64,000 nt of DNA from an uncultured Hyphomicrobiales bacterium (GTDB lineage Bacteria; Pseudomonadota; Alphaproteobacteria; Rhodospirillales; CAYFNC01). The notes under the pieces were generated by a model. The model had not been told where the DNA came from and made no database searches. It worked only from the letters and a program-made list of their open reading frames with translations. Shown here in pieces: positions 20,482-63,745 of this stretch. The stretch's first letter is position 1. Each line of letters begins with the position of its first letter. A program made the position numbers and the translations under genes. The DNA lies in assembly GCA_964344345.1 (NCBI GenBank), contig CAYFNC010000006.1, positions 30,894 through 94,893 on the forward strand, in the 5' to 3' direction.

Positions 20482-21186
20482 ATGCTGACGAACGACATCA
20501 CAGGCGTCATGGGCGCCCAGGCGGCGGAGACCGGAGACCCGGTCGCCCGCTCGGTCAGCGACAAGGAAAAGCTGGACGAGGAACTGAACCGGTTCATGAA
20601 CCTTCTGGTCACCCAGCTCAAGAACCAGGACCCCCTGGACCCCATGGACGCCAACGAATTCACCAACCAGTTGGTGCAGTTCGCGAGCGTCGAGCAGCAG
20701 ATCTACCAGAACGCCAACCTGGAAAAGCTGTTGAAGGTGCAGGAAAGCTCCCAGATCGCGACCATGGTCAACTACATCGGCACCGAGGTCGAGGTCGAAG
20801 GCGAGGTCCTGCCTCTGCAGGACGGCGCGGGCAAGTTCACGTACACGCTCTCGGAAAACGCCAAGCAGAACACCATCACCATCACCAACGCCGCGGGTCA
20901 TCAGGTCTACAACGGCGACGGCGAAACCGCGATGGGCATGCACACCTTCGAATGGGACGGCCTGGACAAGTACGGCATCCAGCTTCCCGACGGCGCCTAT
21001 ACGATCAAGTCCAGCGCCGTGGATCCCAGGGGCAACCTTCTTGACGTTTCCTACACCGTGTTCGGCCGGGTGACCGGCGGCGCGTCCGATGACGGCGAGG
21101 TCTCGCTGTTCATGGACGATGTCCAGTCGCCCATGAACGACGTCCTGTCGGTCAACGAGGCCAAAAAGGACACGACGACGGAGTAA
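20482..21186 (+). CDS. flgD: flagellar hook assembly/capping protein FlgD
   Basis: FMNLLVTQLKNQDPLDPMDANEFTNQLVQFASVEQQI is the FlgD signature. AGGAGA ribosome-binding site. Confidence 0.9.
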   Translation: MLTNDITGVMGAQAAETGDPVARSVSDKEKLDEELNRFMNLLVTQLKNQDPLDPMDANEFTNQLVQFASVEQQIYQNANLEKLLKVQESSQIATMVNYIGTEVEVEGEVLPLQDGAGKFTYTLSENAKQNTITITNAAGHQVYNGDGETAMGMHTFEWDGLDKYGIQLPDGAYTIKSSAVDPRGNLLDVSYTVFGRVTGGASDDGEVSLFMDDVQSPMNDVLSVNEAKKDTTTE

Positions 21187-21252
21187 TGGAGTTAACCAAG
21201 GCGGCCGAGAAAAAGCAGGCCGCGAGAGTAGACTAGAGTAAGGAGAAGAATC

Positions 21253-49562: not shown

Positions 49563-50167
49563 GCGCCTTGCCTCCGGAACCTGCGTGATCGCGCGCCATA
49601 ATAGCATGGGCGTTCGGCGGGCGGCAGTCCGGAATGAACGCGCGGAAAACAACGCACTTGCGAACAGTGATCGACGAGAACGCCGCGTCTGCGTAAAAAC
49701 CCTCTGAAATTTCCATGACTTCAAAGAAGCGAAGGTTTTTTTCGCACCTGCGAGAGTTAAGCATATGTCAACCATTCGCCCCTATCATCGGGATCAATGA
49801 AGCAATGAATATGACCGACGGTGGATGAGATGGAAATTCTGACGACAATCGTAATCGCCATGATGTTCATGTGGGCAATCGCCGGGTTTTTGACCTTGAC
49901 CAGCGGCTTCGCCGGGCTGATCCGTTAAACGACGAAGACCCGCGCGATACGCGATAGTCGCGGCGCGGAAATCTTCTCGAGGTGAATCGGTTTTTTCCAG
50001 AAAATTCAACTCGCGAGCACCGGCGCCCCCTCCGGGAGGGTATCCTAACTCATTGAAATATAATAAATATAACTTCTCGCTTAACCATCTCTTGCACTTG
50101 CGAGATAGGCCCCATATTTTCCCCCTTGGATAATTAACGACGATTGCATCGAAGGGGGCCGTTTCTT

Positions 50168-51106
50168 ATGTCCACGCGTCATGAAAGCAAGGTGTTGATT
50201 CTCGGATCCGGGCCTGCGGGCTACACCGCCGCAATTTACGCGTCGCGCGCGTCGCTGTCGCCGCTTCTGGTCAAGGGCATGCAGCCGGGCGGGCAGCTCA
50301 CCATGACCACCGAGGTCGAGAACTTCCCAGGCTTCGAGGAGGCCATCCAGGGCCCCGAGCTGATGGAGCGCATGGAGAAGCAGGCTCTCAACGTCGGCGC
50401 CACCCTGATGGACGACCTGATCGTCGAGGCGGACCTGTCCAAGCGGCCCTTCGTGCTCAAGGGCGACTCGGGCGACGAGTACGCGGGCGAGACCCTGATC
50501 ATCGCCACCGGGGCCAGCGCGCGCTGGCTCGGCATGGAGTCGGAAGAGAAATACATGGGCTTCGGCGTGTCCGCCTGCGCCACCTGCGACGGCTTCTTCT
50601 ATCGCGAAAAGAAGGTCGCGGTGATCGGCGGCGGCGACGCGGCGGCCGAGGAGGCGATTTATCTCTCCCATATCGCCAGCCAAGTCTATCTGGTCCATCG
50701 CCGCGACGAGCTCCGCGCGGACAAAACCCTGCAAAAGCGGGTGTTCGACAATTCGAAGATCACCATGGTCTGGGACTCGGTTCCGGACGAAATCCTGGGC
50801 CAGGACATGCCCCCGGGCGTCACCGGGCTCCGGGTCAAGAACGTCAAGTCCGGCGACACCACCGACATCGACCTGGACGGCGTGTTCGTCGCCATCGGGC
50901 ACAACCCGAACACCGAGCTGTTCAAGGGCCAGCTCGACATGGACGAGCAGGGCTACCTGATCACCAAGCCCGACAGCGCCGCCACCAACATCGAAGGCGT
51001 GTTCGCGGCGGGCGACGTCCAGGACCGGCATTTCCGCCAGGCCATCACGGCGGCCGGCACCGGCTGCATGGCGGCTTTGGAGGCCGAACGGCTCCTGACC
51101 GAATAG
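50168..51106 (+). CDS. trxB: thioredoxin-disulfide reductase
   Basis: ILGSGPAGYTAAIYA ... redox CATCDG ... VIGGGDAAAEEA ... GVFAAGDVQD. Confidence 0.95.
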   Translation: MSTRHESKVLILGSGPAGYTAAIYASRASLSPLLVKGMQPGGQLTMTTEVENFPGFEEAIQGPELMERMEKQALNVGATLMDDLIVEADLSKRPFVLKGDSGDEYAGETLIIATGASARWLGMESEEKYMGFGVSACATCDGFFYREKKVAVIGGGDAAAEEAIYLSHIASQVYLVHRRDELRADKTLQKRVFDNSKITMVWDSVPDEILGQDMPPGVTGLRVKNVKSGDTTDIDLDGVFVAIGHNPNTELFKGQLDMDEQGYLITKPDSAATNIEGVFAAGDVQDRHFRQAITAAGTGCMAALEAERLLTE

Positions 51107-52267: not shown

Positions 52268-52489
52268 CAATATGTTATGGTGATGTTGCGTGGTTTTGAC
52301 GAAGAAAATACGCACATAGTTCTCCACTTGTGGGCGCGCCGTGGGCGCAAATCAAGAATTTCAGTGTTTCATTTAGATGTTCGGTCCCCGTGCTTCACGA
52401 CGCGCTGGAATGGGTTGCCGAACGTTGGATGAAAGTGAGGCTTCGATTACGTTTGGCGCAAAGTGCTGGAGATCGGAAAGAGCTTCGAG

Positions 52490-53659
52490 ATGGCGACGCT
52501 TTGCAGGAAATGTCTCCGCCTCTCTTATGAGGGCGCCGGCGTCTGCCCGGGGTGCGGGTCGAAGATGACGGTTTCCCATGGCGAGCTGACGACATTGGAC
52601 ATCGCCCATATCGACTGCGACGCGTTTTTCGCCGCCGTGGAGAAACGCGACAACCCCAGCCTGCGAAACAAACCCGTCCTGATCGGGCGCGACACGGGAC
52701 GCGGAGTGGTGGCGACCGCATGCTATGTCGCCCGGCGATACGGCCCCAGATCCGCCATGCCGATGTACCGCGCGCTTGAGCTCTGCCCGGGCGCCGTGGT
52801 CATTCCGCCCGACATGGCGAAATACAAAAGGGTCGGCGGGCGGGTTCGCTCCATCTTCCTGGACGCGACCCCGACCGTGGAGCCGGTCTCCATCGACGAG
52901 GCTTATCTGGATCTCACGCAAGACGAGCGACGGGATCCGCGCCCACCGGCCGTTCTCCTCGCCGAGATCGCCGCGCGGGTCGAACGCGAGGTCGGCATCA
53001 CCGTGTCCGTCGGTCTTTCCCACAACAAGTTCTTGGCGAAAATGGCCTCCGACCTTGAAAAGCCGAGGGGGTTTTCGGTGATCGGCCGCGCCGAAGCCAG
53101 ATCCTTTCTCGCTCCGCTGTCGGTCAGAAAGATTCATGGCGTCGGCGAAGCCACCGCCAAGCGCATGGCCGAGGGCGGGGTGGACACGATCGGCCAACTC
53201 CAGCAAATGACCGAGACGGAGTTGGTCGCCCAGTTCGGGAAGTTCGGGCGGCGGCTGGCCCAGTTCGCCGTCGGCGAAGACGACCGGAAAGTCACCACGG
53301 ACCGCCAACGCAAAAGCGTCAGCGCCGAAACCACCTTTCGTTCGGACATGCGCTCGGCCGAAGATCTGTGCTCGGCCCTACGCCCCCTGTGCGACAAGGT
53401 CGCGACGCGTCTGGTTCAAGGGGAAATAGCCGGGCGAACCGTTGTCGTGAAACTGAAGACCGCCGATTTCCAAATCCACACCCGGAACCATCGAATGCCC
53501 AACCCGACCCAAAGGGCCAACGTGATCTACGAACATGCGGCGCCCATCATCGCTCGCGAGGCGGACGGTCGTAAGTACCGCTTGATCGGCGTCGGGGTCA
53601 GCGATCTTCGCCCCGCGGCCGAGGCGGACCCGCCGGGATTGTTCGACGGACTGGATTGA
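52490..53659 (+). CDS. dinB: DNA polymerase IV with an N-terminal Cys4 extension
   Basis: MATLCRKC ... CPGCGS, then IAHIDCDAFFAAVEKRDNP ... SIDEAYLD ... SVGLSHNKFLAK. Confidence 0.9.
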   Translation: MATLCRKCLRLSYEGAGVCPGCGSKMTVSHGELTTLDIAHIDCDAFFAAVEKRDNPSLRNKPVLIGRDTGRGVVATACYVARRYGPRSAMPMYRALELCPGAVVIPPDMAKYKRVGGRVRSIFLDATPTVEPVSIDEAYLDLTQDERRDPRPPAVLLAEIAARVEREVGITVSVGLSHNKFLAKMASDLEKPRGFSVIGRAEARSFLAPLSVRKIHGVGEATAKRMAEGGVDTIGQLQQMTETELVAQFGKFGRRLAQFAVGEDDRKVTTDRQRKSVSAETTFRSDMRSAEDLCSALRPLCDKVATRLVQGEIAGRTVVVKLKTADFQIHTRNHRMPNPTQRANVIYEHAAPIIAREADGRKYRLIGVGVSDLRPAAEADPPGLFDGLD

Positions 53660-53697: not shown

Positions 53698-55617
53698 CTA
53701 CCGCCGGAACCTGGCGTCCGGCGGAGGGAAGACGATCTTGCCGCCGTCGGCGGGCAGGATGGCGATTTCGGTGGGAACGCCGTTCTCGTCCAGGACGACT
53801 TGGCCGAGCGCGCTCATGTTGGCGAGCCTTCGGGGCTTCAATCCTTCGGGCCTGCGGGCGCGGACGCGCATGCGGCGGCGCTTGGTCAGAAGGTTGAGCG
53901 GGGAATCGCTGCCGTAGAACCAACGGTTCAACCGGTCGAACCAGCGCAGCAATCCGTGGGGGAATTCGTTCTTGAACCCGCTGCAGGTGATCTGCCAGAT
54001 GTCCGGGCTGGTCTTGGCGAAGCGGATCTTCACGTCGTAGACGAAGGAGTAATGCACGTCGCCGGACAGGATGACGAAGTTCTGCGGCGTCTTGGTGTGG
54101 CGGAAGATGTTGAGGATCACGTTCGCCGAACCGGGATGCGCCATCCAGTTCTCGGCGTCCACCAGCAACGCGTGGCCGAAATAGGCGAAGACGCGCTGCA
54201 CCGTCTCGATCAGCTTCACCCCGAAAATCGGCGCGGGCGAGACCATCAGCACGGCGGGCTGGTCCACAAGCTCGCCCTGAAGCTCGGAAAGCGCCTCCCA
54301 GTCCATCAGGCCCGACGGCTTGGACAGCGACGTTTCCGACCACCAGCGGCGCGTGCGCGTGTCCATCACCACCATCCGAGGCGACGTGGGCAGGGTGTAA
54401 TGCCAGCCATGAAAAGCGAAAAGGGCCCCGACCAGCGCGTCGCGGGGCTCCCCGCCCGGGCCGTCGAGGCCGCCACGGACCGCGCCGACGAAATCGTCGT
54501 CGAAACGGTCGGGGTCGTTTCCCCATCCCTGGAACAGCCAGTAGGCGATGAGCGCGTTGCCGAGGATTCGGCGCGAGAACGGATGGCCGTAGGCCGCGTC
54601 CTCCCATCCGCGCGTCAGGTTCCAGTCGTCTGTGACGTCGTGGTCGTCGAAGATCATGTAGACCGGAACGTGGGCCAGCGCCCGCCGCACCCGGGAAAGC
54701 CCCTCGGCGAAGCCTTGCACATGGGGCAGTTCGGTCTGGTAGGCCTCCCGATGCTTGGCGGCGACGTCGTCGGGGTCGAGCCGGATGTCGCCCCAAAGGG
54801 CGGGCGACCAGACCAGAAGATACATGCCGCACAGCTCCCGAAGCGCGATCAGGTGGTTCTGCGCGGTTTCGGCGGTGAAGATGGGCTTGCGGACGCCGCC
54901 GAAGAAGCGGTCGCGAAGCGCCTTGTTGGCCTTGGTCGCGGGTAGAAGCTCCTCGCGGCGGTAATAGCAGCATTGGTGGCCGAGCAGGCTTTCGCTGTCC
55001 GGAACCTTCGCGCCGTCAAGCGCTTCGTGGAAAAGGCCGACCCGCGCCGCCGCCTGGTGGATCGCCGACAGCATCGGCCCCGCCACGTCGTCGCAATAAA
55101 CCTGGTCGCCGGACAGCGTCAACAGCGCTGGGCGGGAGTTGGCGTCGTTCAGGCTTTCGCCAATGGCCTCGTCGACCCTGAGCAGCGCGTCCCCGCTTTC
55201 GTAATGGGGCTTGCGGCACGACCCGTGCAGAAAACGATCGAGGCGAACGTGGATGGCGAAGCTCGGCCTGCGTTCGTCGTCATAAGTCAAATCGGGGATT
55301 AGGTCCTTCAGCGAGGCCTCTCCGCTCGGGGTGGCGGCGATCAGGTCGTATTCCAGCATTTCCCCCGTGGGCAGCGGCTCGGCCGGGCGGAGGTCGATCA
55401 ACTGGACGAAGGCGCGCTCGCCGATGCGGACGCGGCGCGCCGCAGCGCCCTCGATGGTCTGGGAGAAGAACGGCGCGTTTTCGCCTCGTCGGTAAAGGCA
55501 TGCGCGGAACGTCGCCTCCTCGCTGACGGCGAGCCAGAGCACGACGCGGTCGGGCGTCACCCGGCGAAGGATCGGCCCCGCGATGATAAGGGGGAGGGGA
55601 CCCGGGTCGGGGTTCAT
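53698..55617 (-). CDS. PhoD-like / calcineurin-type metallophosphoesterase family protein
   Basis: LTLSGDQVYCDD ... MIFDDHDVTDDW ... ILSGDVHYSF. Confidence 0.6.
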   Translation of the reverse strand: MNPDPGPLPLIIAGPILRRVTPDRVVLWLAVSEEATFRACLYRRGENAPFFSQTIEGAAARRVRIGERAFVQLIDLRPAEPLPTGEMLEYDLIAATPSGEASLKDLIPDLTYDDERRPSFAIHVRLDRFLHGSCRKPHYESGDALLRVDEAIGESLNDANSRPALLTLSGDQVYCDDVAGPMLSAIHQAAARVGLFHEALDGAKVPDSESLLGHQCCYYRREELLPATKANKALRDRFFGGVRKPIFTAETAQNHLIALRELCGMYLLVWSPALWGDIRLDPDDVAAKHREAYQTELPHVQGFAEGLSRVRRALAHVPVYMIFDDHDVTDDWNLTRGWEDAAYGHPFSRRILGNALIAYWLFQGWGNDPDRFDDDFVGAVRGGLDGPGGEPRDALVGALFAFHGWHYTLPTSPRMVVMDTRTRRWWSETSLSKPSGLMDWEALSELQGELVDQPAVLMVSPAPIFGVKLIETVQRVFAYFGHALLVDAENWMAHPGSANVILNIFRHTKTPQNFVILSGDVHYSFVYDVKIRFAKTSPDIWQITCSGFKNEFPHGLLRWFDRLNRWFYGSDSPLNLLTKRRRMRVRARRPEGLKPRRLANMSALGQVVLDENGVPTEIAILPADGGKIVFPPPDARFRR

Positions 55618-55868: not shown

Positions 55869-57422
55869 GTGTGGTATGCTGCTTTTTCGCGACGACCCAG
55901 GAAGGGGGCGGCGGTGAAAGAAACCAAGTCCTCCGAGACCGGAACCCTGACCGAACCCACCAGCTATCGCCTGGTCTGCGGCCTGTTTTTGCGGCTGCTG
56001 GCCCTGGTTTACCTGATCGCGTTCGTTTCCATTTCTGGCCAGATCGACGGCCTCGCCGGACCGGACGGGATATTGCCTTACGGCCGATACCTCGAAAGCT
56101 ACCGGACCGTCGAGGGTGACTTCGCCTTTTTGATCGCGCCCGGCCTGTTCTGGCTGTCGGCCGAAACCTGGGCGTTGGAGGGCGCGGCCTATCTCGGCGC
56201 CGGAATATCGATCCTGCTGTTCTTTGACATCTGGCCAAGGGTGTCCGCTCTGGCGCTGTTCGTGCTGTATCTGTCCCTGGTCGGCGCCGGGTCCGTGTTC
56301 ATGCATTTCCAGTGGGACGCCATGCTGCTGGAGATGGGGTTTTTGGCGATCTTCCTTCCGGGGGGATCGCGGATCGTCGTGTTTCTGTACCGCTGGCTGC
56401 TCTTCCGCCTTCGATTCCTGTCCGGCGCGTTCAAGGTTCTGAGCGGCGATCCCTCCTGGCTCGGCCTGCCCGCGCTCCTGGGCGGCGAGGGGGCTTGGCG
56501 AGGGCTGACGGCCCTGAATACCTATTTCGAGACCCAGCCGCTTCCCCACGTCGGGGCGTGGTACGCCCACCAGCTTCCCGAATGGCTGTTGATGGCGGGG
56601 ACGGCGACGGTCCTGATTTTGGAGCTGGTGGTTCCGTTCATGATGTTCATGCCGCGCCGCTATCGCCTGTTCGCCGCGTGGGCGACCATCGGTTTTCAAT
56701 TGGCCGTGATGCTGACCAGCAACCACACGTTCTTCAACGTTCTGACCCTGGTCCTTTGCCTGTTCCTGTTCGACGACCGGGCGCTCGCGCGCGTGGTTCC
56801 GACCTGGGCCCGGGGCTGGCTGACCCGGCGGTTCCCGGACCGACCGGAAGGCGCGGCCAAGCGGGCCGTGGCGGGACTGCTGGCCGCCGCCATCGTTCCG
56901 CTGAGCGTTCTTACGCCCTTACAGGTTCTGGACAAGGAGCTGTTTTCGGATCGCCTCAATTGGGTTTTGAACCTGGTCAAGCGCTATCACGTGGTCCATC
57001 CCTACCATGTCTTCCCGACCATGAACCGCGAGCGCATCGAGGTGGTGATCGAGGGCTCCATGGACGCTGTCGATTGGCGCGAATACGGCTTCAAATTCAA
57101 GGCCGACCGGGTTGACGAGCCGCTCCGCGTCTCCCAGCCGCACCACCCCCGGCTCGATTGGATGCTGTGGTTCGTTCCGTCGGACAATCCCGACCATGAT
57201 TTCTGGATGCCGAACCTGGCCGGAGCCTTGTTCAAGGGATCGAAGCCGGTGCTCGACCTCTTCGACGTCGTGCCCTTTGGCGGCGCGCCGCCCAACTTTA
57301 TTCGCATCAGTTTCTTCCGTTATCGCTTCGCCGCGCCCGAGGAGCGGGCGAAGACGGGCGCGTGGTGGGCGCGGACCTATCTTGGCCCGGCGACGCCGGT
57401 TCCTTGGCTTTCTCGGTTTTGA
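55869..57422 (+). CDS. lipase maturation factor (LMF1-like) family membrane protein
   Basis: SYRLVCGLFLRLLALVYLIAFVSISGQIDGLAGPDGILP. Polytopic. C-terminus HHPRLDWMLWF. Start is uncertain. Confidence 0.7.
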   Translation: MWYAAFSRRPRKGAAVKETKSSETGTLTEPTSYRLVCGLFLRLLALVYLIAFVSISGQIDGLAGPDGILPYGRYLESYRTVEGDFAFLIAPGLFWLSAETWALEGAAYLGAGISILLFFDIWPRVSALALFVLYLSLVGAGSVFMHFQWDAMLLEMGFLAIFLPGGSRIVVFLYRWLLFRLRFLSGAFKVLSGDPSWLGLPALLGGEGAWRGLTALNTYFETQPLPHVGAWYAHQLPEWLLMAGTATVLILELVVPFMMFMPRRYRLFAAWATIGFQLAVMLTSNHTFFNVLTLVLCLFLFDDRALARVVPTWARGWLTRRFPDRPEGAAKRAVAGLLAAAIVPLSVLTPLQVLDKELFSDRLNWVLNLVKRYHVVHPYHVFPTMNRERIEVVIEGSMDAVDWREYGFKFKADRVDEPLRVSQPHHPRLDWMLWFVPSDNPDHDFWMPNLAGALFKGSKPVLDLFDVVPFGGAPPNFIRISFFRYRFAAPEERAKTGAWWARTYLGPATPVPWLSRF

Positions 57423-57493
57423 ATTGAAAAGGGCGGATATGGACCGCCGTTGAATTGCGTTATGATCCGCGAAGCTTGCGGAAAGGGCGGCTC

Positions 57494-58201
57494 GTGATCA
57501 AATGCAGCGTCATCGTTCCCGTGTTCAACGAGGACCGAACCATCGTGCAAATCCTGGAAAAGGTTTCGGTCGTGACGGTCGAGGGCGTCGAATTCGAGGT
57601 CGTCGTCGTCGACGATGGATCGACCGACGGCACGCGGGATCTGCTGAAGGGGCGTCCGGAACTCTATGCGACCCTTCTTCTCCAGGACAGGAACGGCGGC
57701 AAGGGCGCGGCAGTCAAGGCGGGCCTAGCCGCCGCGACCGGCGATTACGTACTCTTTCAGGACGCGGACCTGGAATACGATCCGGCCGATTATCCGACGT
57801 TGCTGGAACCCGTGACGCGCCTTGGCGCCGAGGTGGTGATCGGAAGCCGCATGCTGGCGCCGCGCATGACGCGGGTCTCGTATTTCTGGCACAAGGCCGG
57901 AAACAGAATCATCACGCTAGCTTTCAACGTCCTGTTCAACGTGACCTTCACCGACGCCTATTCATGCTATCTGATGTTCCGCCGCGACCTCGTTTCCCCT
58001 TCCGAATTGAAGACGGAGGGGTGGGAGCAGCAGGCCGAGATCCTTGGGCGCGTCGTGCCCCGCGCGAAGGCCCTCTTCGAGGTTCCGATCAGCTATTACG
58101 GTCGCGGCTACGGCGAAGGAAAAAAGATCAGATGGTGGCACGCGTTCATCGTGCTGTGGACCATCTTGCGGTCGCGGTTGTTTCTTAAAAGGAATGTATA
58201 A
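57494..58201 (+). CDS. family 2 glycosyltransferase
   Basis: CSVIVPVFNE ... VVVVDDGSTDGT ... FQDADLEYDP. GTG 57494 preceded by GAAAGGG (the ORF is open from 57455). Confidence 0.85.
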   Translation: MIKCSVIVPVFNEDRTIVQILEKVSVVTVEGVEFEVVVVDDGSTDGTRDLLKGRPELYATLLLQDRNGGKGAAVKAGLAAATGDYVLFQDADLEYDPADYPTLLEPVTRLGAEVVIGSRMLAPRMTRVSYFWHKAGNRIITLAFNVLFNVTFTDAYSCYLMFRRDLVSPSELKTEGWEQQAEILGRVVPRAKALFEVPISYYGRGYGEGKKIRWWHAFIVLWTILRSRLFLKRNV

Positions 58202-58511
58202 CATCAAGTCGTTCGTAGGTCAGGAGCGGACCGCTCGCGGCCACATCCCAAAAAGCGCGCCTATCGCTCTTCACGGAATACCCTCGGAAGGTGTGCGGAG
58301 ACGCCAGGGATGATAGTCAGCGGGAAAAACGCTTGTAACAAAAAACTCGGAAGCGGTCTTTCTCCGGCCGGTTGTCCGATCGCCCGGCGCGGGCGGTGTA
58401 ATTCGCGATTTCGGCATTATCTAAATCTCAACGACTGGCGCGTATAGCTGTTTTTAACCCCGGTCCGGGCGCGTATAATCGCCGCGTCCTTGGAAAAGAA
58501 AAGGTGGCGTC

Positions 58512-60464
58512 ATGAAGCTTCGTCTTGTCATTCCGAGGTTCAGCCCCCCAGGTTTCAGCTACGCCTTCCCCCTTGGCCTCGCCTACATCTCGTCGGCGGT
58601 CAAGGCCGCGGGACACGAGGTCACGTGCCTCAATCTGAACAACGAGGAGATCGTGGACCGCGACGCCATCGAGGCGGCGGTGAAGGGCTTCGATCCCGAC
58701 GTCTGCGGCACCGGCTCCATCTCGCCGCTGTTCGGCGCTGTCAAGGAGATCATGAGCGTCGCGCGCGAAACCAAGCCCTCGATCGTGAACGTGATCGGCG
58801 GCGGCGTGTTCAGCAGCGCGCCCGAGGTGGTCACGCCGCTTCTGGACATCGACATGGGCGTGGTCGGCGAGGGCGAGGAGACCATCGTCGAAATCCTGCA
58901 CGCGCTCGAACACGGCGGCGACCTCAAGGACATCAAGGGCATCGGCGTCAAGGGCAAGGATGGGGAATGCCAAAGGACCGAGGCGCGTCCGCCCATCCGC
59001 GACATCTCGAAACTGCCCTGGCCCGACTACGAGGGCCTGGACCTGGAGCGGTTCCTGGAAATCCAGAACATCGCGGACGAAGCGTACTCCAACATCATCG
59101 ACACGCCGCGCAGCCTGCCGATGATTTCCAGCCGGTCGTGTCCCTACGCCTGCACCTTCTGCTTCCATCCCACCAGCCGCATCTACCGCGAACGGCCCAT
59201 GGATGCGTTCTTCGAGGAGCTGGATTGGCTGATCGACAAGTACGACGTGAACCTGCTGGAAATCTGCGACGAGCTGTTCACGGCCAAGAAGCAGCGGGCG
59301 CTGGATTTCTGCGAGCGCATCAAGCCCTATGATCTGAAATGGCAGGTTCAGCTCCACGTCTCCATGATCGACGCCGAGTTGCTGGAGACCATGGAGGACG
59401 CCGGTTGCATCCTGGCCAGCTACGGGCTCGAAAGCGCCAACGACGACGTTCTTCTCAGCATGAAGAAGAAGGCCACCCGCGCCCAGATCGAGAACGCGCT
59501 CGGCCTTACCCACGAGAAGAAGGTCGGCATCCAGGGCAACTTCATCTTCGGCGACACCGCCGAGACCATGCGGACCATCAACGACACCATGGACTGGTGG
59601 TCCAAGCATCGGGAATACCGCGTTAACCTGAGCTTCCTGCAGGTCTATCCCGGCACGCCCATCTATCACCACGCGGTGGAGACCGGAATCATCAAGGAGA
59701 CCGCCAAGGACGGAGACCTGGTCCAAGGCATCATCAACACCACCATCCTGGACAACGAGACCTACGAACGCATGATGCGCCGCCTGCGCATCTACCGCGA
59801 AACCCTGGTCATCCCGGCGCCCGTGGTCCAGTTCGAGCAGCAGAACGGCGAACTGGTCTCCGGCAAGCCGCTCTACCATATCGTTTGGGACTGCCCCCGC
59901 TGCGGGACCCGCAACGATTTCCGCAACGTCCGCACCGACATGCCGCACCACCAGCGCGCGCTCATCTTTGCGTGCCGCGATTGCAAGACTCGCTTCGACG
60001 TGCCCAACCCGACGGTCCCACCCGTCGACGATCCCGAACTCGACGAGCTGTACAACGAGGCGATCGCGCGGCGGCAAGCGGGCGACGTTCGCGGCGCGGC
60101 GGAGAAATACCTCGAGATCGTCAACAAGACGTTCCCGCCCTTCGCGCCGCCGCCGGAATCCTATGTCCGCGCCTGTTTCGACCTCGGCAACATCTTTCTT
60201 AGGGAGTTCAACGACGTCGAGCACGCCATCGTTTACCTGGGCGAGGCGGTGATGCATCGCGCCTTCGACCCCAGGTGCCATTTCGCGTTCGCGCTGGCCC
60301 TGATGAACGAAGGCTCCATCGACGGCGCGCAATTGCACTGCGAAACCGCGCGGCGCCTTATCTCGGCGGAGAATCCGGACGAGATGGCCAGCGTCGATCA
60401 ACTCGCCGCCGCCATCGCAAGCCAGAAGGCCGCCGATGAGACACCGACCTTCTTTATCGGTTGA
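58512..60464 (+). CDS. B12-binding-domain (class B) radical SAM protein with a C-terminal Cys4 zinc-ribbon and helical-repeat extension
   Basis: N-terminus LGLAYISSAVKAAGHEV ... VIGGGVF (B12-binding fold). SSRSCPYACTFCFH (CxxxCxxC). CPRC...CRDC, then TPR-like helices. Confidence 0.85.
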   Translation: MKLRLVIPRFSPPGFSYAFPLGLAYISSAVKAAGHEVTCLNLNNEEIVDRDAIEAAVKGFDPDVCGTGSISPLFGAVKEIMSVARETKPSIVNVIGGGVFSSAPEVVTPLLDIDMGVVGEGEETIVEILHALEHGGDLKDIKGIGVKGKDGECQRTEARPPIRDISKLPWPDYEGLDLERFLEIQNIADEAYSNIIDTPRSLPMISSRSCPYACTFCFHPTSRIYRERPMDAFFEELDWLIDKYDVNLLEICDELFTAKKQRALDFCERIKPYDLKWQVQLHVSMIDAELLETMEDAGCILASYGLESANDDVLLSMKKKATRAQIENALGLTHEKKVGIQGNFIFGDTAETMRTINDTMDWWSKHREYRVNLSFLQVYPGTPIYHHAVETGIIKETAKDGDLVQGIINTTILDNETYERMMRRLRIYRETLVIPAPVVQFEQQNGELVSGKPLYHIVWDCPRCGTRNDFRNVRTDMPHHQRALIFACRDCKTRFDVPNPTVPPVDDPELDELYNEAIARRQAGDVRGAAEKYLEIVNKTFPPFAPPPESYVRACFDLGNIFLREFNDVEHAIVYLGEAVMHRAFDPRCHFAFALALMNEGSIDGAQLHCETARRLISAENPDEMASVDQLAAAIASQKAADETPTFFIG

Positions 60465-60528
60465 CGCCCAGCGTAGGCTGAGTGGGGACGACGCGCGCCG
60501 CTACGTGGAGCGCAGGCTGGAAACACCC

Positions 60529-61431
60529 ATGACCACGCTCGACCGCTTCCCCCGTTGGTTTCTGGTCGAGACGGTCAATAGCTGCAATTCCCGTTGCGTC
60601 ATGTGCGGCATCGACTTCGACAAGAAGGCGAAGGCGGTGATGGCCGACGACGTCTTCCGCTCCATCATCGACGAGATCGCGGGCTGGCCGGACCACGTCC
60701 TTCGGGTGACGCTGACTCTTGACGGCGAGCCGTTGATCGACAAGAAGCTGCCCGATCGCATCCGTCGGGTGAAGCAGGCCGGTCCGTTCGAGGCCCACAT
60801 CAGCACCAACGCCAGCCTGCTGACCGAAAAGACCGGCCGCGCCTTGATCGAGGCCGGGCTGGACCTGGTCTATATCACCGTCGATTCCTTGAAGAAAGAC
60901 GTCTACGACGCCATCCGGGTCGGCCTGGACTTCGATGTGGTCTACGAAAATGTCCTGAACTTCGTGACGCTTCGCGACCGACTCGGCGCCGCGACCGCCA
61001 TCAGGGTGCAGATGGTGCAGCAGGAAGCCAATTACGACGAGGCCGACGATTTCGAGGCCCACTGGGGGCCCATCCTGTCCCCCCGCGACCAGGTGGTGGT
61101 CCAGCGCGCCCACAACTGGGGCAACGCGGCGGAGGTGATGAAATTCGGCGACGAGGACCAAGTCAACGACCATCCCTGCATCGCGCCGTTCGGCACCTGC
61201 GTCATCCTTGTCGACGGCTCCATCCGGCTATGCTGCATGGATGTGGAGGACACCTGTGTGCTCGGCAAAGTCCAAGACGCCTCCATCGCCGAGCTGTGGC
61301 GGGGCGAGCGCATGCGGGCGGCGCGCGAGGTTCACCTGTCCGGGCGGCGCGAGGATATCGCGATCTGCGACGGCTGCACGCTCTGGCGCGAGGACAAGCA
61401 GACCTTCCATGCCGGTGGAGACGCGTCATGA
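60529..61431 (+). CDS. radical SAM/SPASM-domain protein
   Basis: VETVNSCNSRCVMCG (CxxxCxxC). LTLDGEPL. SPASM tail CIAPFGTCVILVDGSIRLCC ... ICDGCTLW. Confidence 0.85.
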   Translation: MTTLDRFPRWFLVETVNSCNSRCVMCGIDFDKKAKAVMADDVFRSIIDEIAGWPDHVLRVTLTLDGEPLIDKKLPDRIRRVKQAGPFEAHISTNASLLTEKTGRALIEAGLDLVYITVDSLKKDVYDAIRVGLDFDVVYENVLNFVTLRDRLGAATAIRVQMVQQEANYDEADDFEAHWGPILSPRDQVVVQRAHNWGNAAEVMKFGDEDQVNDHPCIAPFGTCVILVDGSIRLCCMDVEDTCVLGKVQDASIAELWRGERMRAAREVHLSGRREDIAICDGCTLWREDKQTFHAGGDAS

Positions 61432-63302
61432 GCGGCCGACGCCTGACCCGATACGCCGCCGAGCTCCGCGACCGGTATGGGGCGAACGAGCGCCTGTTGC
61501 TGGTCCAGTTGCCCCAGGTGGTCCTGGGCGCGTTCAACCGGGACGTGGCGCTGGCCGGAAGCTATTACATCTTTCCGCCGACGGGACTGCAGTTCCTGTA
61601 CGAGTCCATCCGCCATCGCGGGCTCGACGTCCGCATCCTCGATTTGAACTTCCGCATCCTGAAGGCGGTGCGCGAGGACCCGGACTTCGACGTCGAGGAG
61701 TGGCCCGCCATCCTGGAGGCCGAACTCGACGACTTCCGCCCCGGCCACGTGGGCGTGTCGTGCCTGTTCGATTTCGCCATCGGCCCCATGACCCGTGCGC
61801 TGACGCTCCTGAAGGAGCGGGGCGAAAGCGTGGTCACCGTCGGCGGCGTGATCGCCACCTATGAATGGCGGAATCTGTTGGCGCGCGATTTGTGCCATTT
61901 CGTGGTCGAGGGCGAGGGGGAGAGGAAGTTCGACTACCTGCTTTCCCGACTGTCCGGCGAAATCGACGTGGAGCCAACGGTGGGTATCCGCTTCAAGGAC
62001 GCGGACGGCTTCCACGAGAGCGAAGGCGACGCGAGTCCCGTCCATCCCCAAGGCGACCTGGTCGCCAGCTACGATCTGGTTCCGGTGGAGGAGTACGAGA
62101 AATACGGCTCGCTCAACCCCTATTCGCGGATGGACAACAGGCCCCGCGCGCCCTTCGCGGCCATCCAGATGAGCCGAGGATGCCGGGCCGCGTGCACGTT
62201 TTGCTCGGTGCGCGACTTCATGGGCAAGGGCGTGCGGTTCCGGCCCATCGCCGACATCCTGGCGGAAATGGCGTTCCTGATCGAGAAGCGCGGCGTGCGG
62301 CATTTCGAATGGCTGGACGATGATCTTTTGTTCTATCGCAAGGAGCTTCGCGACCTTCTCCGCGCCGTGATCGAGCGGGGCTGGGACATCCGCTGGTCGG
62401 CCAACAACGGGCTTATCGCCGCCTCCCTGGACGAGGAGACCTTGGACCTGATCCGCGATTCCGGCTGCATCGGGTTCAAGATCGGCATCGAGACCGGCAA
62501 CGCCGAGATGCTGCGCAAGGTCCGGAAGCCAGGCAACCTGGACAAGTTCCGCCGCGTGTCCAGCCTGTTGGAGCGCGCGCCCGGCGTCTTCGTCGGCGGC
62601 AACTTCATCGTCGGGCTTCCTGACGAACGGTTCGGCCAGATGCTGGACAGCTTCCGGTTCTCGCTGGAAATGCGGCTGGACTGGTCGGCCATGACCGTCT
62701 GTCAGATGATCCGGGGCGCCTCCGCCTTCGCCGACGCGGGCGAGTATTTCGAGGACCAGATGCGGACCGACGGCTCGAACGTCGCCAATTTCATTCCGTC
62801 GCGGCACACCGCCAACGGCCACATGCGGAGCAGGGGGCGGCTGTTGCGGGGGCTCGATGTCTTCGCGTTTCCCCCGGACCAGGTCCCCGACGACGAGCAG
62901 GTCAAGGAAATCTGGTTCGCGTTCAACCTGCTCGGCAACTACGCGTTCAACAAGAACCTGAGCCCGGGCGGACGGCCCGAGAAGTTCGTCGCCTGGGTCG
63001 CGTCCGTGCTCGTGGCCTATCCGACCAATCCCTACATGAACCTGTTCCTGTCCCTGGCGCACGCGATGTTGGGAAACAAGGACGTCGCCGAAAGCCATCG
63101 CCTGCGCGCGCGCGAAAACGTCAAGGACGATTATTGGCGAGGACGGTTCGAGAGCTTCGGGCTGTTTCCGCTTCTTGCGGAAGCCCCCGAAACCCGCGAA
63201 GAGGCCCACGCGGCCCTGGAGCGGCTGCGCCGGAATATCCGCTTCCGTCTGGCCAAGTGGTTGGATGGGGAGGAGGAGGCGCGCCTGAGCGCGGCGAAGT
63301 AG
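61428..63302 (+). CDS. B12-binding-domain (class B) radical SAM protein
   Basis: ATGA overlap with the upstream gene. GGTGGAG ribosome-binding site. PTGLQFLYESIRHRGLDV ... VGGVIAT. MSRGCRAACTFCSV. Confidence 0.85.
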   Translation: MSGRRLTRYAAELRDRYGANERLLLVQLPQVVLGAFNRDVALAGSYYIFPPTGLQFLYESIRHRGLDVRILDLNFRILKAVREDPDFDVEEWPAILEAELDDFRPGHVGVSCLFDFAIGPMTRALTLLKERGESVVTVGGVIATYEWRNLLARDLCHFVVEGEGERKFDYLLSRLSGEIDVEPTVGIRFKDADGFHESEGDASPVHPQGDLVASYDLVPVEEYEKYGSLNPYSRMDNRPRAPFAAIQMSRGCRAACTFCSVRDFMGKGVRFRPIADILAEMAFLIEKRGVRHFEWLDDDLLFYRKELRDLLRAVIERGWDIRWSANNGLIAASLDEETLDLIRDSGCIGFKIGIETGNAEMLRKVRKPGNLDKFRRVSSLLERAPGVFVGGNFIVGLPDERFGQMLDSFRFSLEMRLDWSAMTVCQMIRGASAFADAGEYFEDQMRTDGSNVANFIPSRHTANGHMRSRGRLLRGLDVFAFPPDQVPDDEQVKEIWFAFNLLGNYAFNKNLSPGGRPEKFVAWVASVLVAYPTNPYMNLFLSLAHAMLGNKDVAESHRLRARENVKDDYWRGRFESFGLFPLLAEAPETREEAHAALERLRRNIRFRLAKWLDGEEEARLSAAK

Positions 63303-63304
63303 GA

Positions 63305-63745
63305 TTACGGTTCGCCGCGTTTCTCGGTCTTCAAGACCGCTTCCTCCAGGAACGACTTGAAGTCCAGGTCGCCCCGGACAATGTCGTCGACCATGAATTC
63401 CGCAAGGTCGTTGAAGCATTTCGCCAGCCTGCCGACGTCGATTTCGTCGCGGCACATGTCCTTGACGGTCTCCGCCCGTTTCAAAAGCTCGGCGTGGTAG
63501 GCGCTGTGCTGCTCAAGCCGGGGGAAGTTCGTCTCGGCGAGGATGTCCTCCTCGACCTTGAAGTGCTCGGTCGCTTCCTTGATGAACCAGTCAAAAAGCC
63601 CCCGGCATTCCTTCAAGTCGCCGGCCGCGATGGTTTCGTTAAGCCGGTTCAGGATTTCGGCCAAGCGCTTATGGTCGCCGTCGATGTCCGGGTGCCCGGT
63701 TTCATAGGTGGGAAGAATCTCGATTCTGGGCACACGCCCCCCCAA
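63305..63745 (-). CDS. hemerythrin-like metal-binding protein
   Basis: YETGHPDIDGDHKRL ... EATEHFKVEEDIL ... HSAYHAELL ... FMVDDIVRGD. Start is TTG 63745 or GTG 63733. Confidence 0.8.
   Translation of the reverse strand: MGGRVPRIEILPTYETGHPDIDGDHKRLAEILNRLNETIAAGDLKECRGLFDWFIKEATEHFKVEEDILAETNFPRLEQHSAYHAELLKRAETVKDMCRDEIDVGRLAKCFNDLAEFMVDDIVRGDLDFKSFLEEAVLKTEKRGEP

What the first reader, a model, noticed from the sequence alone, without database searches (positions are those of the whole stretch)
57494..63745. Second, unrelated radical SAM cluster: B12-rSAM, rSAM/SPASM and B12-rSAM flanked by GT2/LMF1-like genes and a hemerythrin
The three rSAM genes run 58512-63302. The last two are translationally coupled (ATGA at 61428). 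Two class B enzymes (B12-binding N-domains; CPYACTFC and CRAACTFC) bracket a SPASM enzyme (CNSRCVMC). In known systems this composition (methyltransferase-type plus SPASM maturase) is seen in heavily modified RiPPs such as proteusin-type clusters. Class B enzymes also occur in lipid and hopanoid methylation. Here the neighbours are a GT2, a polytopic LMF1-like protein and a PhoD-like phosphoesterase upstream. A hemerythrin lies convergent 2 nt after the last rSAM gene and could serve O2 sensing or protection for oxygen-labile enzymes. No annotated precursor is present. Together with the left-hand array and the KamA-like gene, the window holds 11 rSAM-type genes.
Basis: partly seen in the sequence, partly recalled or inferred. 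Interest (0 to 1): 0.7.

Follow-up and report, generated by a model that had tools for sequence, protein, structure and literature searches.

The report
Radical-SAM trio for surface-sugar tailoring
Three overlapping radical-SAM genes are real, but their relatives in other genomes sit among sugar-building genes for cell-surface and flagellar glycans, so this is most likely a small, uncharacterised sugar-decorating operon and not a peptide (RiPP) or lipid cluster.

Summary
Three radical-SAM (rSAM) genes lie at 58512-63302: B12-rSAM1, an rSAM with a SPASM-type domain, and B12-rSAM2. They have the stated Cys motifs, and both junctions overlap (29 nt, and ATGA).

The interpretation needs changing. 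No curated family is reached, including RiPP, hopanoid, ladderane and BchE models.

Synteny points to sugar tailoring:
- In 29 informative loci from many phyla, rSAM2 orthologs (47-63% identity) lie in nucleotide-sugar or glycan cassettes.
- A SPASM ortholog is adjacent in 21 of the 29. The other 8 carry a class-III aminotransferase instead, and never both.
- The SPASM family's best solved relative is BtrN, and all four of BtrN's auxiliary-cluster cysteines are conserved.
- The closest rSAM2 homolog sits in a flagellin-glycosylation island (FlaF, Maf, CMP-sugar synthetase).
- The closest rSAM1 homolog sits inside a legionaminic-acid operon (LegC, LegB, NeuB-type synthase).

rSAM1 is never found next to the SPASM-rSAM2 pair elsewhere. 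GT2, LMF1, PhoD and the hemerythrin are not co-conserved with any of the three. The window holds none of the partner sugar genes.

Best reading: a detached sugar-tailoring operon, with a BtrN-like alcohol oxidation plus two probably cobalamin-dependent alkylations. Substrate and chemistry are inferred, not shown.

The parts
58512..60464 (+). B12-rSAM1: class-B-type radical SAM enzyme with an N-terminal Rossmann-like (B12-binding) domain, motif CPYACTFC, a C-terminal 4-Cys zinc-ribbon-like beta domain and a TPR tail.
   Evidence: Pfam. The model has pLDDT 92.5, with five beta-alpha units at the N-terminus, beta strands at 438-498 and helical repeats at 508-637. Foldseek top hits are TsrM, CysS, AprD4, OxsB and TokK, and the tail matches TPR structures. 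C461, C464, C488 and C491 are invariant in 24 homologs.
60436..61431 (+). rSAM enzyme with a SPASM/twitch-type C-terminal domain (CNSRCVMC). It is BtrN-like, overlaps rSAM1 by 29 nt and overlaps rSAM2 by ATGA.
   Evidence: Pfam. The ortholog alignment gives invariant C50, C54, C57, C248, C266, C267, C311 and C314. The family profile's best PDB hit is BtrN at E=1e-17, with all four BtrN C-terminal cysteines aligned.
61428..63302 (+). B12-rSAM2: class-B-type radical SAM enzyme (CRAACTFC) with a helical C-terminal domain.
   Evidence: Pfam. Orthologs are 51-63% identical across phyla. The model has pLDDT 82.7. Foldseek top hits are TsrM, AprD4, MgmA, OxsB, TokK and CysS.
58202..58511 (.). 310-nt gap before rSAM1 (GC 0.568). 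It presumably holds the operon's own promoter or leader region.
   Evidence: No Rfam family matched. There is no convincing sigma-70 or terminator match. The small ORFs here are not conserved elsewhere. GC content.
57455..58201 (+). GT2 glycosyltransferase of the polyprenyl-phosphate-sugar synthase type (AglJ/ArnC/PpgS-like). It is a neighbour and is not shown to belong to the system.
   Evidence: PF00535 scores 107 bits. The best NCBIfam hits are AglJ, ArnC and dolichyl-P hexose transferase, all below cut-off. Relatives occur near rSAM2-like genes only in L055 and L060.
55869..57422 (+). LMF1-family polytopic membrane protein. It is a neighbour and is not co-conserved.
   Evidence: LMF1 scores 156 bits and LMF1_C 130 bits. 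The nearest homolog (67% identity) is followed by EamA and has no GT2 or rSAM neighbour.
63305..63745 (-). Bacteriohemerythrin-domain protein, convergent with rSAM2. It is a neighbour and is not co-conserved.
   Evidence: TIGR02481 scores 69.2 bits against a cut-off of 51.75. It is absent from all related loci.
53698..55617 (-). 639-aa protein with a weak PhoD-like stretch, divergent from the LMF1 gene. It is a neighbour and is not co-conserved.
   Evidence: PF09423 scores 34.4 bits over 53 residues. It is absent from related loci.

Best explanation
The three genes form one co-translated operon of radical-SAM enzymes. They most likely tailor a nucleotide-activated sugar destined for a surface glycan. 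That glycan is most plausibly the flagellin or cell-surface glycan built around a legionaminic-acid-type nonulosonic acid and/or a heptose-derived sugar.

Proposed steps (all inferred):
1. The middle enzyme works like BtrN. 5'-deoxyadenosyl radical abstracts the carbinol hydrogen of a sugar hydroxyl, and the single auxiliary [4Fe-4S] cluster takes the electron. This gives a keto-sugar, which in related loci is then aminated by a DegT-type aminotransferase.
2. rSAM2, always encoded beside that oxidation/amination step, carries out a probably cobalamin-dependent radical alkylation (most likely C-methylation) of an unactivated carbon of the same sugar.
3. rSAM1 adds a second, independent modification. 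Its TPR tail suggests that it docks on a protein partner.

In this genome the trio is detached from the main sugar locus, which must lie elsewhere.
For: Operon: the junctions overlap by 29 nt and by ATGA.

rSAM2 family:
- 80 loci were retrieved from bacteria and DPANN archaea.
- Orthologs of 47% identity or more sit in a recurrent cassette. It comprises an HldE-like kinase/nucleotidyltransferase, a HAD-like protein, an APH-type kinase, split transketolase, a 357-aa rSAM, two methyltransferases, a WbuC cupin (TIGR04366, 141 bits against a cut-off of 42), aminotransferases and a TIGR04372 glycosyltransferase (152 bits against 45). Magnetococcales loci add TPR+GT proteins.
- More distant relatives sit among epimerases/dehydratases, GmhA-like SIS proteins, DegT and E1-type ThDP enzymes.

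SPASM partner:
- An ortholog (42-56% identity) is adjacent to rSAM2 in 21 of 29 informative loci.
- The other 8 carry a class-III aminotransferase. No locus has both, and none has neither.
- DegT is present in 12 of the 21 SPASM loci and in 0 of the 8 aminotransferase loci.
- The best solved relative is BtrN (E=1e-17), with all four BtrN C-terminal cysteines aligned to invariant C248, C266, C311 and C314. The next hits are MoaA and the sugar decarboxylase BlsE.

Nearest relatives:
- The 63% rSAM2 homolog lies among FlaF, Maf (Maf_flag10_N+MptE-like), CTP_transf_3, CBS-NTP-transferase, DegT, GT4 and sulfotransferases, with the APH/transketolase cassette alongside.
- The 52-54% rSAM1 homolog is flanked by LegC (TIGR04181, 439 bits against 420), LegB (445 against 475) and a CBS-NTP-transferase. 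A NeuB-type synthase follows 3 nt downstream (391 against 399.65, truncated by the contig end).
- L093 repeats the Leg/FlaF context.
- Neighbours of rSAM1 relatives are enriched for epimerases, DegT, sugar-1-P cytidylyltransferase, transketolase, TylC3-type C-methyltransferases and YerE-like ThDP enzymes.

Fold: both large enzymes have the class-I B12-rSAM architecture.
Against: - The 64-kb window contains none of the partner genes: no NeuB, LegB, LegC, Maf, FlaF, CMP-synthetase, DegT, WbuC, transketolase or HldE-like gene. The substrate in this organism is therefore unknown.
- rSAM1 is never adjacent to the SPASM-rSAM2 pair in about 160 other loci, so the three may not act on one molecule.
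- The flagellin link rests on a few loci (L171, L093, L163). Many cassettes look like O-antigen or capsule loci instead (WbuC, ABC exporter, sulfotransferases).
- Cobalamin binding and methyl transfer are not shown. AprD4, a top structural and sequence hit, has a similar N-domain but binds no cobalamin (PMC12931638). The best HMM hits, BchE and HpnJ, are not methylases.
- All functional inference is guilt by association. No member of any of the three families is characterised.
Confidence: 0.6

Rival explanations
1. RiPP maturation. Two class-B methyltransferases and a SPASM maturase would modify an unannotated ribosomal peptide, as in proteusin-type clusters.
For: The composition superficially resembles PoyB/PoyC plus a SPASM enzyme. 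rSAM1 carries a TPR tail that could bind a peptide. Weak sub-threshold hits occur to ApyD and rSAM_ocin_1.
Against: - The RiPP models score 3- to 8-fold below their cut-offs.
- There is no PqqD/RRE hit, and only 49 residues precede the cluster motif in the SPASM protein.
- The small ORFs in the 310-nt gap are not conserved near any homolog.
- Across about 160 related loci the neighbours are sugar-nucleotide and glycosyltransferase genes, not precursors, peptidases or RiPP exporters.
Confidence: 0.05
2. Membrane glycolipid or lipid modification together with the upstream genes. The GT2 would make a polyprenyl-phosphate sugar (or lipid-linked glycan), the three rSAM enzymes would modify it, and the LMF1-like and PhoD-like proteins would handle it.
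For: GT2 and LMF1 lie on the same strand directly upstream, separated from the trio by a 310-nt gap with no terminator-like hairpin. The GT2 is of the Dpm1/AglJ/ArnC type. GT2 relatives (39-45% identity) lie just downstream of rSAM2-like genes in two Elusimicrobia loci, L055 and L060. Class-B rSAMs do act on lipids, for example HpnP/HpnR and the ladderane enzyme.
Against: - The nearest LMF1 homolog (67% identity) has neither GT2 nor rSAM neighbours.
- LMF1, PhoD and GT2 are absent from 78 of the 80 rSAM2 loci and from all 80 metagenome rSAM1 loci.
- HpnR, HpnJ and ladderane models score far below cut-off.
- No hopanoid or lipid-synthesis genes lie nearby.
Confidence: 0.12
3. Sugar tailoring, but by non-methylating chemistry. 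One or both 'B12' enzymes would act without cobalamin, or without methyl transfer, for example as an AprD4-like diol dehydratase (deoxygenation) or a BchE/HpnJ/OxsB-like rearrangement or cyclisation.
For: AprD4 (paromamine 1,2-diol dehydratase) is the best or second-best sequence hit in the PDB for both enzymes and a top fold hit. The best NCBIfam scores are to BchE (151.6 bits) and HpnJ (128.7 bits) for rSAM1. The review PMC12931638 states that non-methylating members cannot be told from methylases by sequence or structure, and that AprD4 binds no cobalamin.
Against: PF02310 is above its gathering score in both proteins. TsrM, CysS, TokK and MgmA, all cobalamin methylases, are equally good fold matches. 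All characterised groups in the class-B network include C-methyltransferases.
Confidence: 0.2
4. The adjacency is partly accidental. The SPASM-rSAM2 pair is one functional module, and rSAM1 is an independent enzyme that happened to be fused into the same transcript in this lineage.
For: rSAM1 relatives stand alone or with other partners everywhere else examined. rSAM2 orthologs never have an rSAM1 ortholog directly upstream.
Against: The 29-nt coding overlap between rSAM1 and the SPASM gene implies co-transcription and probably coupled translation. Both families occur in the same kind of locus, and rSAM1-like genes (35-36% identity) lie 3-5 kb from rSAM2 orthologs in L006 and L042.
Confidence: 0.25

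Closest known systems
BtrN (butirosin pathway radical-SAM 2-deoxy-scyllo-inosamine dehydrogenase, PDB 4M7T/4M7S)
   Same: It is the best solved relative of the middle enzyme's family (profile E=1e-17). Both the rSAM core and the C-terminal domain align, and all four C-terminal cysteines are matched by family-invariant cysteines at nearly identical spacing. Like BtrN, which works with the DegT-family aminotransferase BtrS (my own knowledge), the family is genomically tied to DegT aminotransferases: 12 of 21 loci.
   Different: Sequence similarity is low. The family has a conserved ~45-residue N-terminal extension and an extra invariant Cys (C267). The substrate context is nucleotide-sugar and glycan loci, not aminocyclitol antibiotics. 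No DegT gene lies in this window. Activity is untested.
Cobalamin-dependent radical-SAM C-methyltransferases acting on amino sugars (GenK, GenD1/GntE, Fms7, MoeK5; listed in PMC12931638)
   Same: These share the class-B architecture of an N-terminal Rossmann-like B12 domain plus an rSAM barrel, and a carbohydrate-tailoring context.
   Different: Membership of those groups was not tested: no GenK or GenD1 model was available. The context here is primary surface-glycan loci across many phyla, not actinomycete antibiotic clusters. The proteins have extra C-terminal domains (Zn-ribbon plus TPR, or a helical domain). Methyl transfer is not shown.
AprD4 (apramycin radical-SAM 1,2-diol dehydratase, PDB 6FD2)
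   Same: It is a top PDB sequence hit for both large enzymes (E 1e-13 to 2e-13) and a strong fold match, and its substrate is a sugar.
   Different: NF033070 scores only 51.5 and 59.2 bits against a cut-off of 500. AprD4 binds no cobalamin. No AprD3-like partner was identified here.
BchE / HpnJ (largest class-B group, non-methylating or unknown chemistry)
   Same: These give the highest NCBIfam scores for rSAM1: BchE 151.6 bits and HpnJ 128.7 bits.
   Different: The scores are far below the cut-offs (481 and 578). No (bacterio)chlorophyll or hopanoid genes are nearby. rSAM1 has a different C-terminal region.
Proteusin-type RiPP clusters (PoyB/PoyC plus further maturases)
   Same: They also combine several class-B rSAM enzymes in one locus.
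   Different: The model scores are sub-threshold. There is no precursor, no RRE and no RiPP accessory genes, and the synteny is entirely with sugar genes.

Membership tests
Class B (cobalamin-dependent) radical SAM enzymes | CxxxCxxC radical-SAM motif within a Radical_SAM (PF04055) domain | tested here: met
   CPYACTFC in rSAM1 and CRAACTFC in rSAM2. PF04055 scores 53.5 and 70.4 bits against a cut-off of 29.5.
Class B (cobalamin-dependent) radical SAM enzymes | N-terminal Rossmann-like B12-binding domain (PF02310) with five beta-alpha units, and the class-I arrangement seen in TsrM, TokK, OxsB and QCMT | tested here: met
   PF02310 scores 59.6 and 46.9 bits against 32.1. The models show five N-terminal strands each. 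Foldseek matches TsrM, CysS, TokK, OxsB and MgmA with E from 1e-20 to 1e-11.
Class B (cobalamin-dependent) radical SAM enzymes | Actual binding of cobalamin and its use in catalysis | not testable with these tools
   AprD4 has a similar domain but binds no cobalamin. Sequence and fold cannot decide this.
BtrN-like (twitch) radical-SAM alcohol dehydrogenases | A single auxiliary [4Fe-4S] site formed by four Cys in the C-terminal domain, with BtrN as the closest solved relative | tested here: met
   The profile of 14 orthologs hits BtrN best (E=1e-17). BtrN's four C-terminal Cys align with invariant C248, C266, C311 and C314.
BtrN-like (twitch) radical-SAM alcohol dehydrogenases | Pairing with a DegT/BtrS-type aminotransferase that aminates the keto product | tested here: inconclusive
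   The pairing holds for the family: DegT occurs in 12 of 21 SPASM-type loci, against 0 of 8 loci that carry the class-III aminotransferase instead. It does not hold in this window, where no DegT hit was found.
SPASM-domain radical SAM enzymes (two auxiliary clusters) | A seven- or eight-cysteine motif that ligates two auxiliary [4Fe-4S] clusters | tested here: inconclusive
   PF13186 scores 45.6 bits against 21.5. The window protein has 7 Cys in the region, but only 5 are invariant among orthologs.
RiPP radical-SAM maturation systems (proteusin PoyB/PoyC-like, SPASM peptide maturases) | A score above the curated threshold for RiPP rSAM models | tested here: not met
   TIGR03975 scores 71.5 and 54.1 bits against 281.85. 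ApyD scores 115.9 and 91.5 bits against 750. The peptide-maturase models for the SPASM protein all score 56 bits or less against cut-offs of 265-650.
RiPP radical-SAM maturation systems (proteusin PoyB/PoyC-like, SPASM peptide maturases) | An RRE/PqqD-like recognition domain and an adjacent, conserved precursor-peptide gene | tested here: not met
   There is no PqqD hit at E<=0.01. Only 49 residues precede the motif in the SPASM protein. ORFs in the gap are not conserved. Neighbours in related loci are sugar genes.
Hopanoid / lipid class-B enzymes (HpnR, HpnJ, ladderane rSAM) and GDGT-MAS | A score above the curated threshold, with hpn or lipid-synthesis neighbours | tested here: not met
   HpnR scores 68.7 and 42.5 bits against 650. 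HpnJ scores 128.7 and 81.3 bits against 577.6. The ladderane model scores 118.1 and 57.1 bits against 360. GDGT-MAS is only a weak PDB hit, E=2e-3. No such neighbours are present.
Nonulosonic-acid (legionaminic / pseudaminic) and flagellin-glycosylation loci | A NeuB/LegI/PseI-type synthase, a CMP-sugar synthetase, LegB/LegC-type enzymes, and a Maf or FlmG transferase in the same locus | tested here: not met
   None of these is detectable in the 64-kb window. They are present next to the closest homologs: L171 (FlaF, Maf, CTP_transf_3), L172 (LegC, LegB, NeuB-type) and L093. The link is therefore by homolog context only.
Bacteriohemerythrin | A hemerythrin domain model above threshold | tested here: met
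   TIGR02481 scores 69.2 bits against 51.75, and PF01814 scores 47.3 bits against 25.3.
Polyprenyl-phosphate glycosyltransferases of family GT2 (Dpm1/GtrB/ArnC/AglJ type) | A GT2 catalytic domain with closest similarity to polyprenyl-P sugar synthases, reaching a curated equivalog | tested here: inconclusive
   PF00535 scores 107 bits, so the domain criterion is met. The best equivalogs, AglJ at 104.5 bits against 325 and ArnC at 66.4 bits against 529, are not reached.

The most novel reading that the evidence does not exclude
The trio would be a portable add-on module that decorates a legionaminic-acid-type nonulosonic acid, or the heptose-derived sugar made by the associated cassette, on flagellin or another surface glycoprotein. 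It would do so by a radical oxidation plus two cobalamin-dependent C-alkylations. That would be the first cobalamin/radical-SAM chemistry described on bacterial sialic-acid-like sugars. The TPR/Zn-ribbon tail of rSAM1 would dock the enzyme on the glycosylation machinery or on the glycoprotein itself.
Probability: 0.25. Interest if true: 0.7.

Novelty: new variant of a known kind. Interest (0 to 1): 0.5.

Why it matters
Class-B radical-SAM enzymes form more than 100 sequence groups, and most have no known substrate (PMC12931638).

This analysis ties two such groups, and a BtrN-like partner family, to nucleotide-sugar and flagellin-glycan loci. The loci occur across many bacterial phyla and DPANN archaea. 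One clean genomic rule emerged: next to rSAM2 there is either a BtrN-like rSAM (usually with DegT) or a class-III aminotransferase, never both.

That gives enzymologists concrete candidate substrates to try, such as CMP/GDP-linked legionaminic-acid intermediates and NDP-heptose derivatives. It also gives glycobiologists a likely source of unexplained methyl or amino decorations on flagellin and surface glycans.

For the genome scan, it moves this locus from 'possible RiPP cluster' to 'orphan glycan-tailoring operon'.

Tried and rejected
- Exact-sequence look-ups of window proteins failed, so the native 138-kb contig could not be read. Only a 6.7-kb twin contig, L088, extended the view by 2.9 kb. 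It shows an ABC-type binding protein and a 589-aa gene.
- A single-protein scan of genome contigs with rSAM1 found nothing.
- The sigma-70/terminator scan of 55.4-64 kb was uninformative.
- Rfam found no riboswitch or other RNA family, including no cobalamin riboswitch.
- Fold searches confirmed the class-B fold but could not separate methylase from non-methylase.
- Literature searches found nothing that describes these families: radical SAM with WbuC/transketolase, nucleotide sugar, heptose/HldE, nonulosonic, or flagellin glycosylation island, and LMF1 in bacteria.
- A flagellin search of all loci found a flagellin gene near a relative only in L163.
- Plasmid searches gave one Azospirillum oryzae locus with further rSAM, GNAT, carbamoyltransferase and methyltransferase genes. 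It is suggestive but not decisive.
- The small ORFs in the 310-nt gap were tested as precursor candidates and rejected.
- Horizontal-transfer signals from composition were considered. The trio's GC (0.63-0.65) matches the window's (0.649).
- The label 'WbpG-like' that I used for a 408-aa L171 protein has no evidence behind it and is not relied on.

Full report
**1. What is in the sequence**

ORF listing and Pfam confirm the anatomy.
- PhoD-like gene, 53698-55617 (-).
- LMF1/LMF1_C membrane protein, 55869-57422 (+).
- GT2, 57455-58201 (+).
- A 310-nt gap.
- rSAM1, 58512-60464: B12-binding plus Radical_SAM domains, motif CPYACTFC.
- An rSAM with a SPASM-type domain, 60436-61431: motif CNSRCVMC.
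- rSAM2, 61428-63302: B12-binding plus Radical_SAM domains, motif CRAACTFC.
- A convergent hemerythrin, 63305-63745 (-).

The ATGA junction at 61428 and the 2-nt spacing to the hemerythrin stop are exact. The SPASM gene most probably starts at ATG 60436, because the ~45 residues before the cluster motif are conserved in orthologs. It therefore overlaps rSAM1 by 29 nt, and all three genes are coupled.

The two large enzymes are only 25% identical to each other. The trio has no detectable similarity to the left-hand rSAM array. Its GC content (0.63-0.65) equals the window mean. The gap holds no Rfam family and no convincing promoter or terminator match.

**2. Family placement by sequence and fold**

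No NCBIfam equivalog is reached by any of the three proteins.
- rSAM1: BchE 151.6 bits against a cut-off of 481; HpnJ 128.7 against 578; ladderane 118 against 360; ApyD 116 against 750; HpnR 69 against 650.
- rSAM2: the Sden_1168 P-methyltransferase model 108 against 575; ApyD 92 against 750.
- RiPP C-methyltransferase model TIGR03975: 71.5 and 54.1 bits against 282.
- SPASM protein: its best hits (tungsten-cofactor maturase 80 bits against 380, spiro-SPASM, twitch) are also sub-threshold.

In the PDB, both large enzymes hit AprD4, MgmA/QCMT and TsrM by sequence, and rSAM1 also hits CysS. AlphaFold models built from homolog alignments are confident: pLDDT 82.7 for rSAM2 and 92.5 for rSAM1. Both show the class-I B12-rSAM architecture. 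Foldseek top hits are TsrM, CysS, AprD4, OxsB, TokK and MgmA.

rSAM1 additionally has a beta domain with four invariant cysteines (C461, C464, C488, C491) and a TPR tail at 508-637 that matches TPR structures.

A 2026 review states that class-B enzymes form more than 100 groups, most of them unexplored. It also states that non-methylating members cannot be recognised from sequence or structure, and that AprD4 binds no cobalamin (PMC12931638). Cobalamin use and methyl transfer therefore remain inferences here.

**3. The SPASM enzyme is BtrN-like**

Fourteen orthologs align at 40-53% identity to the window protein. Outside the CxxxCxxC motif, only C248, C266, C267, C311 and C314 are invariant.

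A profile of this alignment finds BtrN as by far the best solved relative (E=1e-17). MoaA, the sugar decarboxylase BlsE and GDGT-MAS follow. The ungapped 71-residue alignment of the C-terminal domain places BtrN's four cysteines exactly on C248, C266, C311 and C314. From my knowledge of the published BtrN structure, these four ligate its single auxiliary cluster.

There is no room for an RRE, since only 49 residues precede the motif, and there is no PqqD hit.

**4. Neighbourhoods of rSAM2 and the SPASM gene**

rSAM2 has orthologs at 51-63% identity in Rhodospirillales, Gallionellales, Magnetococcales, Planctomycetota, Omnitrophota and others. A profile-guided scan of one genome per species returned 80 loci, including DPANN archaea.

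I ran tblastn with the seven window proteins against these loci and clustered the neighbouring ORFs. Family scans of the cluster representatives show a recurrent cassette:
- an HldE-like kinase/nucleotidyltransferase,
- a HAD-like protein,
- an APH-type kinase,
- split transketolase,
- a 357-aa rSAM,
- two methyltransferases,
- a WbuC-family cupin (TIGR04366, above cut-off),
- an aminotransferase,
- rSAM2,
- often a TIGR04372 glycosyltransferase (above cut-off), TylC3-type C-methyltransferases, an epimerase/dehydratase and an ABC exporter,
- in Magnetococcales, TPR plus glycosyltransferase proteins.

Individual loci add further sugar genes: DegT, RmlC, sulfotransferases, and PEP-utilising/GATase/NTP-transferase sets. 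More distant rSAM2 relatives (30-40% identity) sit among epimerases, GmhA-like SIS proteins, HldE-like proteins, DegT, E1-type ThDP enzymes, SDRs and Nudix proteins.

Among 29 informative ortholog loci, the counts are as follows:

| Gene beside rSAM2 | Loci | DegT also present |
|---|---|---|
| SPASM ortholog only | 21 | 12 |
| Class-III aminotransferase only | 8 | 0 |
| Both | 0 | - |
| Neither | 0 | - |

SPASM relatives at 36-40% identity also occur in seven loci of more distant rSAM2 relatives.

None of the cassette genes other than the SPASM gene and rSAM2 is present in the 64-kb window.

**5. Neighbourhoods of rSAM1**

rSAM1 has full-length homologs (38-52% identity, with the same Zn-ribbon and TPR tail) mainly in Rhodospirillales and relatives, often as several paralogs per genome. 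In two long contigs it stands alone.

A metagenome scan gave 80 further loci. None has an rSAM2 or close SPASM ortholog, and none has GT2, LMF1, PhoD or a hemerythrin. Their neighbours are enriched for epimerase/dehydratases, DegT, a sugar-1-phosphate cytidylyltransferase, transketolase subunits, TylC3-type C-methyltransferases, a YerE-like ThDP enzyme and a 373-aa rSAM.

The closest homolog (52-54% identity, L172) is flanked on one side by three genes:
- a CBS-NTP-transferase,
- LegB (TIGR04180, 445 bits against 475),
- a LegC-family aminotransferase (439 bits against 420).

Three nucleotides downstream it is followed by a NeuB-type synthase. That gene scores 391 bits against 399.65 and is truncated by the contig end. 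L093 repeats this context and adds FlaF.

**6. Closest rSAM2 homolog**

The 63% homolog (L171) lies among the following:
- FlaF,
- a Maf protein (Maf_flag10_N plus MptE-like),
- CTP_transf_3,
- a CBS-NTP-transferase,
- DegT,
- GT4,
- sulfotransferases,
- GATase/HisF-like genes,
- a TPR-GT41 protein,
- the start of the APH/transketolase cassette.

This is a flagellin-glycosylation island of the nonulosonic-acid type. A flagellin gene itself was found near a relative only in L163, so the flagellar assignment is plausible but not general.

**7. Flanking genes in the window**

The nearest LMF1 homolog (67% identity) is followed by EamA and has no GT2 or rSAM neighbour. GT2 relatives occur near rSAM2-like genes only in two Elusimicrobia loci. 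The hemerythrin and PhoD-like genes recur nowhere.

The rest of the window is ordinary chromosome:
- FliK/FlgD/FlgE at 18.5-23.3 kb,
- PHB genes,
- DAHP synthase,
- gamma-glutamyltranspeptidase (GGT),
- the ORFs at 50144-51106 and 52463-53659, which I read as TrxB and DinB from their translations alone (no family search was run).

It contains no NeuB, LegB, LegC, Maf, FlaF or CMP-synthetase.

**8. Interpretation**

Shown:
- A coupled three-gene rSAM operon.
- Class-B fold for two of the enzymes.
- A BtrN-like cluster-ligand pattern for the third.
- Strong co-conservation of the SPASM-rSAM2 pair.
- A consistent nucleotide-sugar or glycan context for all three families.
- A Leg/flagellin-glycosylation context for the nearest relatives.
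- Lack of co-conservation of rSAM1 with the pair, and of all flanking genes.

Inferred:
- The middle enzyme oxidises a sugar hydroxyl to a ketone, which is aminated by DegT in related loci.
- rSAM2 alkylates (probably C-methylates) the same sugar using cobalamin.
- rSAM1 adds a further modification and uses its TPR tail for docking.
- In this organism the substrate is made elsewhere in the genome.

I give about 0.6 to the sugar/glycan-tailoring reading overall, and about 0.25-0.35 to the specific flagellin/nonulosonic-acid version.

**9. Rivals**

- RiPP maturation is poorly supported (0.05).
- A lipid or glycolipid system with GT2 and LMF1 rests only on adjacency in this one genome (0.12).
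- Non-methylating chemistry on a sugar is a real possibility for either large enzyme (0.2).
- rSAM1 may be functionally independent of the pair despite co-transcription (0.25).

**10. Novelty and limits**

I found no paper in the searchable library that links radical SAM enzymes with nonulosonic acids or flagellin-glycosylation islands. None of the three families reaches a curated model.

The kind of system, radical-SAM tailoring of sugars, is known from BtrN, AprD4 and GenK/GenD1. I therefore class this as a new variant of a known kind.

The main limits:
- The native genome beyond the window could not be read.
- ORF calling in the related loci was heuristic.
- Everything functional is guilt by association.

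Noticed in passing
window 1661-10837 (+): The left-hand array has six ORFs with a CxxxCxxC motif. Four of them share an unusual C[RAP]G[SN]C[PT][GS]C version and get no Pfam hit at E<=0.001. Only the ORFs at 1709-3034 (Radical_SAM plus SPASM) and 9581-10837 (Radical_SAM, just below the gathering score) are recognised. The array has no similarity to the trio.
   Followed up: partly
   Followed up: no
window 18548-23328 (+): Flagellar hook genes FliK, FlgD and FlgE lie about 35 kb upstream of the trio. This is worth noting because the trio's closest relatives sit in flagellin-glycosylation islands. No flagellin, Maf or FlaF gene is in the window.
   Followed up: partly
L008-L036 and L042 (rSAM2 ortholog loci): There is a strict either/or next to rSAM2 orthologs. 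A BtrN-like SPASM gene is present in 21 loci, 12 of them with DegT. A class-III aminotransferase is present in 8 loci, none with DegT. No locus has both, and none has neither.
   Followed up: yes
L133, L148, L151, L123, L137: Distant rSAM1 relatives (35-42% identity, about 500 aa, no TPR tail) sit directly behind tandem arrays of three or four paralogous SPASM-type rSAM genes. This architecture is reminiscent of the window's left-hand array.
   Followed up: no
L006 15358-17253 and L042 14896-16329: In a Gallionellales and a gammaproteobacterial locus, an rSAM1-like class-B gene (35-36% identity) lies 3-5 kb downstream of the rSAM2 ortholog, next to sulfotransferase and GFO/IDH/MocA genes. This is the only other co-occurrence of the two families seen.
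   Followed up: partly
L173 (Azospirillum oryzae plasmid NZ_CP054615.1, 227648-253492): An 827-aa rSAM1 homolog (42% identity) in a cultured strain is surrounded by two more rSAM genes, a GNAT, a carbamoyltransferase, methyltransferases and a KAS III. This strain could serve as a tractable experimental handle.
   Followed up: no
window 58310-58447 (+): A 45-codon ORF lies in the 310-nt gap before rSAM1. It has no conserved counterpart near any homolog and is probably not a gene.
   Followed up: yes
L088 3747-6673 (beyond the window's right end): A twin metagenome contig (ERZ930070) shows that the hemerythrin is followed by a Peripla_BP_6 solute-binding protein and a 589-aa gene on the minus strand. 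The sugar cassette does not continue downstream.
   Followed up: yes
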